Below are positions 37,233-39,475 of a stretch of 64,000 bases of DNA, in pieces. Source of the stretch: a virus; the IMG/VR virus record IMGVR_UViG_2912849059_000001; one strand, written 5' to 3'. The position numbers and the translations under genes were made by a program. The notes below the pieces were generated by a model, which saw only the letters and a program-made list of their open reading frames with translations, made no database searches and was not told the DNA's origin. Numbering within the stretch: the stretch's first letter is position 1; every line of letters begins with the position of its first letter.

Positions 37233-37730
37233 TTATTTGGTAGTATGTTTTTCTTTTCGTGCATCACTTCTTTGGATCTTTGCTTGAATTTCGGATGCTA
37301 CACTTTCTAATAACCATGCAGGAATCCATTTTTCCCAGCCGATTCGTGCACAGTTTGCTGCGAAACTATTAAAAATGTGGTAACTCAATCCACCGACTAC
37401 CATGAAGAAAAAGAAATCAGGTAGTTTAAGAGCAATATCAAATAAATGTGCAAGAGCTGGTAATGATAAAAGCACCACGGTTCTCGTGATGCCCTCAATT
37501 CCATATTGTGATGAGTATGTTCCATCTAGCTTTGAAGCTTTACTTCCCGTAATCCAGTCGAGCATGATAATCCAGCAATAGATCGATATCCAAATTAAGT
37601 TCGCTTTACCGTATAACAAATTAATTATTGTTCCTAATCCACCACCTATAGCACCACCTACTTTAAATTGAGTACTTGTAATAACATCGCTTATATTCAA
37701 TGCCTTGATGAGTTCGTGAATTCTTTCCAA
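37233..37730 (-). CDS. Phage holin (Phage_holin_4_1-like)
   Basis: LDWITGSKAS, multiple TM segments, adjacent to endolysin; TTG start. Confidence 0.8.
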   Translation of the reverse strand: MERIHELIKALNISDVITSTQFKVGGAIGGGLGTIINLLYGKANLIWISIYCWIIMLDWITGSKASKLDGTYSSQYGIEGITRTVVLLSLPALAHLFDIALKLPDFFFFMVVGGLSYHIFNSFAANCARIGWEKWIPAWLLESVASEIQAKIQRSDARKEKHTTK

Positions 37731-37756
37731 GTTCTCACCTCCTCGTATGATTAAGT

Positions 37757-37985
37757 TAGGTTTTTTAGGGACGGGATGTACCTATAAACCCAAGAGTATC
37801 TATTTTTATGAGATACTTAAATTTGTAGATAGAGTGTTGCCGACCACCTCCTTGAATCTTTGTATTCGGTTGAAAGAATGGTACCTCTGTCTAATAAGTA
37901 GTTTACGAATGAGTTGGATGTTGATGACCATTGGTCATTCTTCGTATCTCTTACGAGGTAGTAGCGCTTATTAGTTCAGAGGAGG
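37757..37985 (+). ncRNA. Bridge RNA (target- and donor-binding loops)
   Basis: CACCTCCT (37845-37852) and TTGAAAG (37870-37876) match the target halves around an inner hairpin; TACGAG (37952-37957) and AGTTGG (37912-37917) match the donor junction. Confidence 0.8.
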
Positions 37986-38025
37986 ACAACACTATCTAAC
38001 ACTGATTAAAATAGGGGTGTAAGCT

Positions 38026-39222
38026 ATGTTCTATTTAGGTATTGATATCGCTAAACATAAACATTATGCGTCCATTATCGATCAAACTGGAAAACCTATT
38101 ACTAAGCCATTTCCCTTTCGGAATCACAAAGAAGGTGGACAAGCACTATTAAATTGGATGTACCGATACATTGAGTCTCCTACAGAAATAATGATTGGAA
38201 TGGAGGCAACAGGACATTATTGGTTAGCCGTTTATTCTTTTCTACTGGATCATGGCTTCTCAGTCGTTGTATTAAACCCAATTCAAACCAATGCCTGGCG
38301 AAAAGGCACAGAAATTAGAAAGCGGAAAACAGACGCCATTGATGCCACTATGATTGCCGATATCATTCGATTCGGCCGTTTTGTTGAAACCCCACTTGTG
38401 GACGAGAAAATGTTCGCTCTAAAACAAATGAGCCGCTTTCGTAATGCGCTTGTAAGTAATATGAGTGATTTAAAACGAAAAGCTCTTGTCGTATTAGATC
38501 AGACTTTCCCAGAGTACCAAAGCATCTTTTCGGATGTTTTTGGTAAAACTTCTTCACAAATCTTACTTGAATATTCCTCTCCCAGTGACTATGAACAGAT
38601 ATCTATTGATGATTTAACACAAATAATTGAGCAAACCAGTCGTAACCGACTTGGGAAGAAAACAGCCAACAAACTAATGGAATTAGCCTCTAATTCGTTT
38701 GGTGTTACCTTCTGTAAAAACGCTTTTTCCTTTCAACTAAAAATGTTGATGGAGCAAATTCGTTTTATCGAAGATCAAATCAAAGAGTGTGAAGAAGAAA
38801 TGTCACAACTTTTAATTGATTTAGATACTCCTATCATGACAATACCTGGCGTTGGACCGATTTTAGGTGCCACTATACTAAGTGAAATTGGGGATATACA
38901 CCGCTTTGACAAACCATCTAAACTTGTCGCTTACGCAGGCATCGATGCCTCTGTGTCCCAATCTGGGCAATTTGAATCCTCAGGTACGTCTATATCCAAG
39001 CGTGGTTCTTCTCATTTGCGTAGAGCCTTATTCCAGGCGGCTATTACAGCTCATAAACATGACCCTGTATTAAAAGCCTTTTATGAAAAGAAACGAAAGC
39101 AAGGAAAGCACTACTATGTTTGTATAGGAGCCGTAGCTAGAAAGCTGTGTTACATTATCTACGCCATTCTTAAAAGCAATAAACCGTATGAAGTTCCTCC
39201 ACATTCACCAGTAGAAACTTGA
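38026..39222 (+). CDS. IS110 transposase/recombinase
   Basis: GIDIAK, MEATGHYW, KTDAIDA (DEDD); IPGVG; AYAGID..QSG. Confidence 0.96.
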   Translation: MFYLGIDIAKHKHYASIIDQTGKPITKPFPFRNHKEGGQALLNWMYRYIESPTEIMIGMEATGHYWLAVYSFLLDHGFSVVVLNPIQTNAWRKGTEIRKRKTDAIDATMIADIIRFGRFVETPLVDEKMFALKQMSRFRNALVSNMSDLKRKALVVLDQTFPEYQSIFSDVFGKTSSQILLEYSSPSDYEQISIDDLTQIIEQTSRNRLGKKTANKLMELASNSFGVTFCKNAFSFQLKMLMEQIRFIEDQIKECEEEMSQLLIDLDTPIMTIPGVGPILGATILSEIGDIHRFDKPSKLVAYAGIDASVSQSGQFESSGTSISKRGSSHLRRALFQAAITAHKHDPVLKAFYEKKRKQGKHYYVCIGAVARKLCYIIYAILKSNKPYEVPPHSPVET

Positions 39223-39475
39223 TTCTTTCATTTTTTTGAAAACCCTTAGGTTTATTTGGTGTGCCCTTTTTTAGATGAACCAATAGTTAAATGATATAGC
39301 GTTGTATGAATACTTTATGAAGACGTTTAGCCACTTCCTATCGAATCCAGTGGATTTATTTTCAAAATCCTCTAGCAATATTTTTTGAAAATGTCCCCTT
39401 GACTTTTCATAGTTGGTCTTTCAAATTTTGACCAAAATAAAAAAGCCTGCTGCAGCACGCTCAATTTCGATAAAG

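What the first reader, a model, noticed from the sequence alone, without database searches (positions are those of the whole stretch)
37731..39430. IS110 bridge RNA apparently programmed to target a Shine-Dalgarno sequence
Seen: the empty site is CTCACCTC-CT-TTCAAATT, the reverse complement of the holin RBS TTGAAAGGAGGTGAG. Joining the ends gives TTGACT (39399-39404)-17 nt-TATGAT (37746-37751), a promoter that exists only in the circle. Downstream, a stem (37831-37841/37880-37888) encloses CACCTCCT (left target + core), an inner GAAT/ATTC hairpin, and TTGAAAG (reverse complement of core + right target). A second stem (CTAATAAG/CTTATTAG) encloses AGTTGG and TACGAG, matching the donor junction AGTTGGT-CT-CGTA; the left donor match is only 6 nt. 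Established: this is IS621-type bridge RNA architecture with a CT core. Inference: the guide specifies TTGAAAGGAGGTG, a strong Bacillus RBS, so the element has many intergenic landing sites and inserts without breaking ORFs. It is also a candidate Gram-positive programmable recombinase.
Basis: partly seen in the sequence, partly recalled or inferred. Interest (0 to 1): 0.88.

Follow-up and report, generated by a model that had tools for sequence, protein, structure and literature searches.

The report
ISBth13 bridge-RNA element targeting ribosome-binding sites
This is a copy of ISBth13, a catalogued RNA-guided (IS110-family) jumping gene, whose guide RNA loop spells out the Bacillus ribosome-binding sequence, so it lands just in front of genes without breaking them; it is a clear example of a mechanism described in 2024, not a new kind of system.

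Summary
Window 37744-39419 is a 1676-bp ISBth13 copy (IS110 family). It sits at the 5' edge of the holin Shine-Dalgarno (SD) sequence in a B. thuringiensis prophage-plasmid.

Identical copies lie at 13 independent sites, all flanked by (C)ACCTC-CT | TTC(AA). The 282-nt left end folds into a 5' hairpin plus two internal-loop stem-loops. The first loop holds CCACCUCCU and UUGAAAG.

Across 13 natural loop variants and 35 sites, from Bacillus to gut-metagenome relatives at 60% protein identity, the loop letters change together with the flanks. None of 20,000 permutations reached the observed match. The right donor guide also co-varies with the element's first bases. The TTGAC(T/A)-17-TATGAT junction promoter is conserved.

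Three caveats apply.
- "Many landing sites" is overstated: about ten minimal sites in a 5.5-Mb genome.
- The left donor guide is invariant, so it cannot be tested by covariation.
- Neither the RNA nor the circle was seen directly.

The kind is known. ISBth13 is already listed in the supplement of the 2024 bridge-RNA paper. As I recall it, mycobacterial IS900 has long been known to insert next to ribosome-binding sites. This scan has noted SD-targeting IS110 elements before on other DNA.

The parts
37233..37730 (-). Target gene: phage holin ORF (TTG start at 37730)
   Evidence: ORF list; Pfam Phage_holin_4_1 E=7e-11; annotated as a holin in sister plasmids
37736..37743 (+). Left target half CACCTC plus core CT. 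On the minus strand this is the holin SD AGGAGGTG, which stays attached to the gene.
   Evidence: Sequence; empty site in L032; same flank type at 13 independent sites
37744..39419 (+). ISBth13 copy, 1676 bp (counted with the right-hand CT core 39418-39419). No terminal inverted repeats and no target duplication.
   Evidence: 100% identical copies with the same ends in plasmids and chromosomes; named ISBth13 in RefSeq annotation
37746..37751 (+). -10 hexamer TATGAT of the junction promoter
   Evidence: conserved as TATGAT, TATAAT or TATGTT in relatives
37758..37982 (+). Predicted bridge RNA, about 225 nt; both ends are inferred, not mapped
   Evidence: Position relative to the -10 hexamer; RNAalifold consensus of 14 relatives; RNA-seq coverage without a sharp start
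37795..37817 (+). 5' stem-loop (AGTATCT / AGATACT)
   Evidence: Fold; compensatory pairs in the alignment (columns 65-70 / 82-88)
37838..37883 (+). Target-binding stem-loop: outer stem 37838-37842 / 37879-37883, internal loop with the guides, inner hairpin 37853-37868
   Evidence: UA<->CG exchange in 5 sequences at the outer stem; AU<->GC exchanges in the inner hairpin
37844..37852 (+). Left target guide CCACCUCCU (same sense as the top strand of the left target plus core)
   Evidence: Co-varies with left flanks (CGCCTCCT, CACCACCT, CATCTCCT, CAATCTCCT, TTTTCTCCT, TTCCTCCT)
37870..37876 (+). Right target guide UUGAAAG (reverse complement of core plus TTCAA)
   Evidence: Co-varies with right flanks (TTTTT, TTTTC, CCAAT, TTTA, TCAG)
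37891..37974 (+). Donor-binding stem-loop: outer stem CTAATAAG / CTTATTAG, inner hairpin 37923-37929 / 37933-37939
   Evidence: GATGACC/GGTCATT becomes GATGGCT/AGCCATT (two compensatory pairs); CG<->UA exchange in 6 sequences
37912..37917 (+). Left donor guide AGUUGG (matches AGTTGG of the right end; the next guide bases AU do not match T-CT)
   Evidence: invariant in nearly all relatives, so not testable by covariation
37952..37957 (+). Right donor guide UACGAG (reverse complement of CT-CGTA)
   Evidence: [quoted passage not shown]
38026..39222 (+). Recombinase gene, 398 aa (DEDD RuvC-like domain plus Tnp domain). Candidate catalytic residues D7, E60, D103, D106, S324.
   Evidence: Pfam PF01548 E=7e-44 and PF02371 E=2e-27; homology to the solved ISCro4 and IS621 transposases, E about 1e-30; motif positions
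39399..39404 (+). -35 hexamer TTGACT of the junction promoter
   Evidence: TTGACT or TTGACA kept in 12 of 13 lineages although the rest of the right end diverges
39409..39419 (+). Left donor ATAGTTGGT plus core CT
   Evidence: Invariant ATAGTTGGTCT at the right end of all relatives
39420..39424 (+). Right target half TTCAA
   Evidence: empty site; TTC at 12 of 13 and TTCAA at 8 of 13 independent sites

Best explanation
Window 37744-39419 is an intact, recently active copy of ISBth13. ISBth13 is an IS110-group element that moves by RNA-guided site-specific recombination.

Proposed mechanism, inferred from the IS621 paradigm (PMC11208160):
1. Excision joins the right and left ends.
2. The junction creates a strong sigma-A-type promoter, TTGACT-17-TATGAT, across the CT core.
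3. This promoter drives a roughly 225-nt bridge RNA from the 282-nt left end.
4. The first internal loop of the RNA carries CCACCUCCU and UUGAAAG. These pair with the bottom strand of ...CACCTC-CT and the top strand of CT-TTCAA in the target.
5. The second loop carries AGUUGG and UACGAG, which pair with the element's own joined ends, AGTTGGT-CT-CGTA.
6. The DEDD/Ser recombinase exchanges strands at the CT core, so no duplication is made.

The left target half is the complement of AGGAGGTG. The element therefore lands at the 5' edge of strong SD sequences. It always lands in the orientation that points its recombinase gene away from the targeted gene, and it leaves SD, spacer and start codon intact.

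Shown here: element identity, its ends, the empty site, site specificity, guide/target and guide/donor covariation, the RNA fold and conservation of the promoter. Inferred: transcription of the RNA, circle formation and catalysis.
For: Identity:
- Pfam DEDD_Tnp_IS110 plus Transposase_20.
- RefSeq annotates it as 'IS110-like element ISBth13'.
- The protein is homologous to the solved IS621 and ISCro4 transposases.

Ends and simple insertion:
- The empty site is present in L032.

Site specificity:
- There are 13 distinct sites of the 100%-identical element; 11 have ACCTCCT on the left and 12 have TTC on the right.

RNA guide:
- LTG and RTG letters change with the flanks in L001, L002, L024-26, L030, L031, L035-39, L040, L045, L052, L154, L161.
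- Cognate loops match 13.6 of 16 positions against 10.5 for non-cognate loops; 0 of 20,000 permutations reach the observed total.

Donor guide:
- ACGAG pairs with CGTAT and ACAAG with TGTAT in three lineages.

Structure:
- 20 of 55 consensus pairs show double changes, including both stems of both loops.

Promoter:
- The -35 and -10 hexamers and the 17-nt spacer are kept in 12 of 13 lineages, while the rest of the right end is replaced.

SD context:
- A start codon lies 13-17 nt after the AG at 8 of 13 sites of the identical copy and at most sites of relatives.
- All ten ACCTCCTTTC sites of an unrelated Bacillus genome are SD contexts.
Against: - There is no direct evidence of the RNA. A stranded-looking RNA-seq run of a strain with a 96% variant covers the left end at 4-50x, with no discrete 5' end.
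- No circle or tandem junction was found in those reads, in fetched loci, in viral contigs or in plasmid records.
- The left donor guide matches only 6 nt, does not pair with the core, and never varies.
- In five of 13 loops the last LTG base is C, not U, which mismatches the core T.
- In three lineages the right flank matches the RTG poorly although the left flank matches (L023, L028, L031).
- Rfam 15 has no family that recognises this RNA.
Confidence: 0.9

Rival explanations
1. The recombinase protein itself recognises the SD-like DNA. On this view the loop matches in the left end are coincidental or serve another purpose.
For: The donor half-sites and the CTCCT part of the target are nearly invariant across the clade. 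Invariance of this kind is also what a protein-read site would show.
Against: The variable target positions change in step with the loop letters in 13 loop variants, while the recombinases stay 60-99% identical. The solved homologues are RNA-guided (PMC11208158).
Confidence: 0.03
2. The CACCUCCU box in the leader is an anti-SD mimic that regulates translation of the recombinase mRNA by pairing with an SD-like box. On this view it is not a DNA guide, and insertion next to SDs results from selection for harmless sites.
For: An SD-like AGAGGAGG box (37978-37985) complementary to CCUCCU follows the second stem-loop. It is kept in most relatives.
Against: That box does not change when the guide changes; for example L002 has guide CACCACCU but box GGGGAGG. 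The insertion point is exact to the nucleotide at every site and the right half co-varies too. Selection after random insertion cannot produce that.
Confidence: 0.03
3. The copy is a fixed relic: structurally complete but no longer mobile.
For: The same insertion is shared by several sister plasmids (pCT51, pIS56-39, poh3). No circle junction was seen.
Against: 100%-identical copies occupy at least 13 different sites on chromosomes and plasmids of several strains. The ORF, catalytic motifs, guides and junction promoter are all intact.
Confidence: 0.04

Closest known systems
IS621 (E. coli) bridge RNA and recombinase, IS110 group (Durrant et al. 2024, PMC11208160; Hiraizumi et al. 2024, PMC11208158)
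   Same: - DEDD plus Tnp(Ser) recombinase.
- Long non-coding left end upstream of the gene.
- Junction promoter across a CT core.
- 5' hairpin followed by two internal-loop stem-loops.
- Left guide in the sense of the top strand and right guide as its reverse complement.
- 9-nt LTG; the 7-nt RTG corresponds to the 'extended RTG' of the paper.
- ATA...TAT flanking the donor (39409-39411 and 37746-37748).
   Different: - Protein similarity is modest (E about 1e-30, two aligned stretches).
- The target is an SD sequence, not a REP element.
- The left donor guide matches 6 nt and does not pair with the core.
- Host range is Bacillus and other Firmicutes.
- Nothing has been tested experimentally for this element.
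IS900 / IS901 / IS902 / IS1110 of the Mycobacterium avium complex (IS110 family)
   Same: Orientation-specific insertion next to ribosome-binding sites of host genes. I recall this from the older literature (Green 1989; Doran 1997; Bull 2000), which was not retrievable here. PMC8141618 confirms only that IS900 is IS110-family and carries the RBS-less, start-less 'hed' ORF on the opposite strand.
   Different: As I recall it, IS900 inserts between the RBS and the start codon, so that the host signals drive an element ORF. ISBth13 inserts at the 5' edge of the SD and leaves SD, spacer and start together. I found no hed-like ORF here.
ISBth13 entry itself (ISfinder name; RefSeq 'IS110-like element ISBth13 family transposase')
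   Same: The window copy is 100% identical to copies so annotated. ISBth13 appears in the supplement of PMC11208160 labelled 'LE / IS110', and a target sequence containing CACCTCCTTTC is in its target set.
   Different: In the held literature I found no statement of its target consensus, its SD preference or its guide sequences.
IS1111-group elements with seekRNA (Siddiquee et al. 2024)
   Same: Same superfamily and the same RNA-guided logic.
   Different: In that group the guide RNA lies in the right end, downstream of the gene. Here it lies in the left end, upstream.

Membership tests
IS110 family, IS110 group (bridge-RNA elements) | Recombinase with an N-terminal DEDD RuvC-like domain and a C-terminal Tnp domain with a conserved Ser | tested here: met
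   PF01548 E=7e-44 and PF02371 E=2e-27. GID, MEATG, KTDAIDA and SKRGS motifs are at residues 5, 59, 101 and 324. The protein aligns to the IS621 and ISCro4 structures.
IS110 family, IS110 group (bridge-RNA elements) | No terminal inverted repeats, no target-site duplication, and the same core dinucleotide at both junctions | tested here: met
   Comparison of empty and occupied sites (L032 against the window) shows CT at both junctions and nothing duplicated.
IS110 family, IS110 group (bridge-RNA elements) | Long non-coding left end upstream of the recombinase gene | tested here: met
   The left end is 282 nt (37744-38025); it is 276-306 nt in relatives.
IS110 family, IS110 group (bridge-RNA elements) | Promoter reconstituted across the joined ends | tested here: met
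   This test is at sequence level only. TTGACT-17-TATGAT is conserved in 12 of 13 lineages. Promoter activity was not tested.
IS110 family, IS110 group (bridge-RNA elements) | ncRNA with a 5' stem-loop and two stem-loops that have internal loops | tested here: met
   RNAalifold on 14 relatives shows compensatory changes in all four stems.
IS110 family, IS110 group (bridge-RNA elements) | First loop: guides complementary to both halves of the target including the core, and co-varying with it | tested here: met
   This site has 8 + 7 nt matches. Covariation holds across 13 loops and 35 sites, with 0 of 20,000 permutations reaching the observed total.
IS110 family, IS110 group (bridge-RNA elements) | Second loop: guides complementary to both halves of the donor including the core | tested here: inconclusive
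   The right donor guide matches 6 nt including the core and co-varies in three lineages. The left donor guide matches 6 nt without the core and never varies.
IS110 family, IS110 group (bridge-RNA elements) | The RNA is expressed, binds the recombinase and directs recombination; a circular intermediate exists | not testable with these tools
   One RNA-seq run covers the left end without a defined 5' end or junction reads. No junction was found in assemblies.
IS1111 group (seekRNA in the right end) | Guide RNA encoded downstream of the recombinase gene, with subterminal inverted repeats | tested here: not met
   Both guide loops lie in the left end. Apart from its last 30 nt or so, the right end is not conserved among relatives.

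The most novel reading that the evidence does not exclude
A whole clade of Firmicute IS110 elements (Bacillus, Brevibacillus, Paenibacillus, Enterococcus and gut or termite metagenomes, down to 60% protein identity) keeps a left target guide that copies the 16S rRNA anti-SD tail. The universal SD would then serve as a portable safe harbour that exists in any new host. The 5-nt right half would diversify (TTCAA, TTTTT, TTTAG, CCAAT, TCAGG) to set how many sites are open.

Two untested corollaries follow.
1. The 13 rrn operons of the B. cereus group carry TCACCTCCT|TTCTA at the 16S 3' end. This is identical over 14 nt to an occupied site, yet no occupied rrn end was found. Either selection or some avoidance mechanism therefore operates.
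2. The abundant guide RNA could also bind mRNA SD sequences in trans as an anti-SD mimic.
Probability: 0.15. Interest if true: 0.6.

Novelty: new member of a known kind. Interest (0 to 1): 0.36.

Why it matters
It gives a clean natural-variation proof that the target loop of a Gram-positive bridge RNA is programmable. Thirteen natural loop 'reprogrammings' each match their own insertion sites. It also defines the guides, ends and promoter of an element that is clearly active in B. thuringiensis, which makes it a practical starting point for a bridge-recombinase tool in Bacillus.

Biologically, it shows an insertion strategy that spares coding sequence and translation signals. The same strategy separates a gene from its upstream transcription, here the holin-endolysin lysis cassette of a prophage-plasmid.

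It does not reveal a new mechanism.

Tried and rejected
- **Rfam 15, permissive threshold:** only two chance hits, mir-203 and SNORD48, E 0.5-0.9.
- **The window's own genome** is not held, so copy number in the source strain could not be counted.
- **Phage collection:** no copy of the element and no close empty site.
- **Genome-contig scan:** only two close relatives. Only 2 of 71 species-representative genomes of the genus carry the left end, so the rrn question could not be tested there.
- **Handles for the multi-copy strains** (L013, L019) are not held.
- **RNA-seq**: X21 had no reads. X22 carries a 96% variant and gives no sharp 5' end. X7 and X17 are contigs only.
- **Circle-junction searches** were negative in viral contigs, fetched loci and plasmids. 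Assemblies would rarely hold a junction, so this is weak evidence.
- **Outward-facing promoter toward the target gene, or a terminator inside the element:** neither was predicted. I therefore dropped the idea of a 'mobile promoter'.
- **Pairing of the guide with the downstream AGAGGAGG box:** no covariation.
- **16S 3' end joined to the left end of the element:** no match in metagenome contigs. The same collection does hold clade members.
- **Literature support for the IS900 precedent:** the key older papers are not held.
Full report
**What is at the coordinates**

The minus-strand ORF 37233-37730 is a phage holin (Pfam Phage_holin_4_1). An amidase/SH3 endolysin lies downstream of it. In gene sense, its start region reads AGGAGGTGAGAAC-TTG.

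Directly upstream in gene sense, from 37744 to 39419, lies a 1676-bp element. It has a 282-nt non-coding left end, a 398-aa ORF (38026-39222) and a 197-nt right end. The ORF carries DEDD_Tnp_IS110 (E=7e-44) and Transposase_20 (E=2e-27). It aligns to the solved IS621 and ISCro4 transposases at E about 1e-30. The GID, MEATG, KTDAIDA and SKRGS motifs are in place.

Megablast against plasmids finds 66 Bacillus records. Eight complete copies are 100% identical with the same two ends and are annotated 'IS110-like element ISBth13 family transposase'. The element is therefore the catalogued ISBth13. The window holds one copy.

**Ends and empty site**

Sister plasmids pCT51, pIS56-39 and poh3 carry the same insertion. 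Plasmid pBT1850054 has the same holin at 99% identity but no element. It reads ...GTTCTCACCTCCT^TTCAAATTTTGACC....

There is no duplication, and CT is present at both junctions. In pHD120161 the same site holds a 1582-bp, 98% variant with a shorter right end.

**Site specificity**

I collected 13 distinct insertion sites of the 100%-identical element from plasmids and chromosomes.
- Eleven have ACCTCCT immediately to the left.
- Twelve have TTC immediately to the right.
- Eight have TTCAA to the right.

Read on the other strand, each left flank begins AGGAGG. At 8 of the 13 sites a start codon follows 13-16 nt after the A, opening an ORF of 50-301 aa. Two more sites have a short ORF or a gene start 28 nt away. 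Three have no start nearby. The recombinase gene always points away from the targeted gene.

**The guide RNA**

The left end folds with modest stability on its own (z = -1.3). Comparative data are clear, however. In 14 relatives RNAalifold finds four features:
- a 5' hairpin
- a first stem-loop (outer stem 37838-37842 / 37879-37883, inner hairpin 37853-37868)
- a second stem-loop (outer stem 37891-37898 / 37967-37974)
- an inner hairpin in that second stem-loop (37923-37929 / 37933-37939)

Twenty of the 55 consensus pairs keep pairing through changes on both sides.

The internal loop of the first stem-loop holds CCACCUCCU (37844-37852) and UUGAAAG (37870-37876). These are the sense of the left target plus core, and the reverse complement of core plus right target. 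That is the arrangement defined for IS621 (PMC11208160).

**Natural reprogramming**

Relatives with changed loops sit in correspondingly changed sites.

| Locus | Left guide | Left flank | Right guide (predicted right flank) | Right flank |
|---|---|---|---|---|
| L001 | UCGCCUCCU | TCGCCTCCT | not assessed | not assessed |
| L002 | UCACCACCU | TCACCACCT | not assessed | not assessed |
| L024 | CCAUCUCC | CATCTCC | AAAAAAG | TTTTT |
| L026 | CCAUCUCC | CATCTCC | GAAAAAG | TTTTC |
| L030 | not assessed | not assessed | AUUGGAG | CCAAT |
| L035-39 (Brevibacillus, 79% protein identity) | not assessed | not assessed | CUAAAAG | T(T/C)TA |
| L031 (Enterococcus) | UUUUCUCCU | TTTTCTCCT | not assessed | not assessed |
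| L045 (gut metagenome, 60% identity) | AUUCCUCCU | TTTCCTCCT | not assessed | not assessed |

Sister copies of L045 with guide AUUGCUCCU sit at (A/T)GCTCCT sites.

Over 13 distinct loops and 35 sites, cognate pairs match 13.6 of 16 positions against 10.5 for non-cognate pairs. None of 20,000 permutations of loops among lineages reaches the observed total. The result is the same when one site per loop is used.

Thirteen further clade members from metagenome contigs all have SD-complement left flanks, mostly with CAT 6-10 nt further out.

**Donor side and promoter**

The second loop holds AGUUGG (37912-37917) and UACGAG (37952-37957). The joined ends read ATAGTTGGT-CT-CGTATG.

The right donor guide co-varies with the element's first base. 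Lineages beginning TGTAT carry ACAAG (L031, L052, the P0108 group), and those beginning CGTAT carry ACGAG.

The left donor guide and its 6-nt match are invariant in nearly all relatives and do not extend into the core.

Only the last 30 nt or so of the right end are conserved among variants. They hold ATAGTTGGTCT and the -35 hexamer. TTGAC(T/A), a 17-nt spacer and TATGAT (or TATAAT, TATGTT) are kept in 12 of 13 lineages. In the integrated state only a weak hybrid, TTTCCA-16-TATGAT, is predicted.

**What could not be shown**

- Rfam 15 has no family for this RNA.
- In raw RNA-seq reads of a strain carrying a 96% variant, both strands of the element are covered at 4-85x. There is no discrete 5' end in the left end and there are no junction reads. 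Some reads cross the left junction into host flanks.
- No circle or tandem junction is present in fetched loci, viral contigs or plasmid records.
- Transcription, circle formation and catalysis are therefore inferred from the family.

**How many sites**

The full 13-mer does not occur in a 5.5-Mb B. paramycoides genome. There are 15 one-mismatch sites against 8 for the reversed control.

The near-invariant 10-mer ACCTCCTTTC occurs ten times, against 17 for the control. All ten copies are SD contexts with a start codon 7-10 nt after GGAGG. In the 64-kb window no other site lies within two mismatches beyond chance.

'Many landing sites' is therefore an overstatement. The right half restricts the element to roughly ten to twenty-five sites per genome. 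This fits the six or more copies seen in one chromosome.

**Exceptions**

L023, L028 and L031 match on the left but poorly on the right. Recent preprints describe half-matched or left-junction-first transfer by IS110 elements (10.1101/2025.10.25.684509; 10.64898/2026.08.31.748434, abstract). That may explain these sites, but I did not test it.

In five loops the last left-guide base is C although the core is CT. This is unexplained.

**A corollary**

The top strand of the target is the 3' tail of 16S rRNA. GATCACCTCCTTTCTA occurs 13 times in each of two complete genomes among those related to G002. It ends the SSU rRNA match in the two loci examined. Over 14 nt it is identical to the occupied site L015.

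I found no 16S tail joined to an element left end in metagenome contigs. Assemblies break at such repeats, so this is weak evidence.

**Comparison with what is known**

The element meets the tested defining features of IS110-group bridge-RNA elements. The exceptions are the left donor guide, which is inconclusive, and the functional features, which are not testable here.

ISBth13 is listed in the supplement of the 2024 paper as an IS110-group element with its ncRNA in the left end. A target sequence containing CACCTCCTTTC is in that paper's target set.

I found no paper in the held library that states its SD preference. Insertion next to ribosome-binding sites is, to my recollection, long known for mycobacterial IS900. 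I could confirm only part of this (PMC8141618).

This scan has reported SD-targeting IS110 elements on other DNA several times.

**Verdict**

This is a new, well-documented member of a known kind.

Noticed in passing
window 39440-39470: Read on the minus strand, a G+C-rich hairpin followed by a T-run (GCGTGCTGCAGCAGGC then TTTTTTATTTT) lies between the upstream 82-aa ORF and the holin SD. The element therefore sits between a terminator-like structure and the SD. Holin transcription probably depends on read-through.
   Followed up: no
window 39276-39393: The window copy has a right-end segment of about 118 nt that the 1570-1596-bp variants lack or replace. RNA-seq reads of a variant strain skip 39275 to 39394 with 27 other letters between. 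Only the last 30 nt or so of the right end are shared.
   Followed up: partly
window 37978-37985: A conserved SD-like box AGAGGAGG lies just after the second stem-loop, 40 nt upstream of the recombinase ATG. The ATG has its own SD, AGGGGTG, at 38013-38019. The box is complementary to the CCUCCU of the left target guide but does not co-vary with it.
   Followed up: partly
L024-L026, L040, L052 (left target guide, last base): Five of 13 natural loops end CUCCC instead of CUCCU although their targets keep the CT core. This leaves a C opposite the bottom-strand A of the core. It is unexplained.
   Followed up: no
L013 and L021 left flanks: Two paralogous sites have AGGAGGTG followed by an 8-bp hairpin (CTTTAGCT...AGCTAAAG). 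No start codon lies nearby, and the next gene, a CNNM/CorC-type transporter in L013, starts about 40 nt away. These are SD-like sequences in a leader, not true SDs.
   Followed up: no
L062 and L065 (two genomes related to G002): The 16S rRNA 3' tail GATCACCTCCTTTCTA is present 13 times per complete genome. Over 14 nt it is identical to an occupied ISBth13 site (L015). No occupied 16S end was found.
   Followed up: partly
window 38832-39053 (RNA-seq run X22): Read depth with the first mate on the plus strand peaks at 40-65x over the 3' part of the recombinase gene, with nine molecules beginning at 38893. This could be an antisense transcript, but the strandedness of the library is not known.
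   Followed up: no
L034 (pHD120161) and CP020003.1: The same holin-SD site is occupied in related plasmids by 98.0% and 98.5% variants of the element. This reflects either divergence in place or independent hits on the same site.
   Followed up: partly
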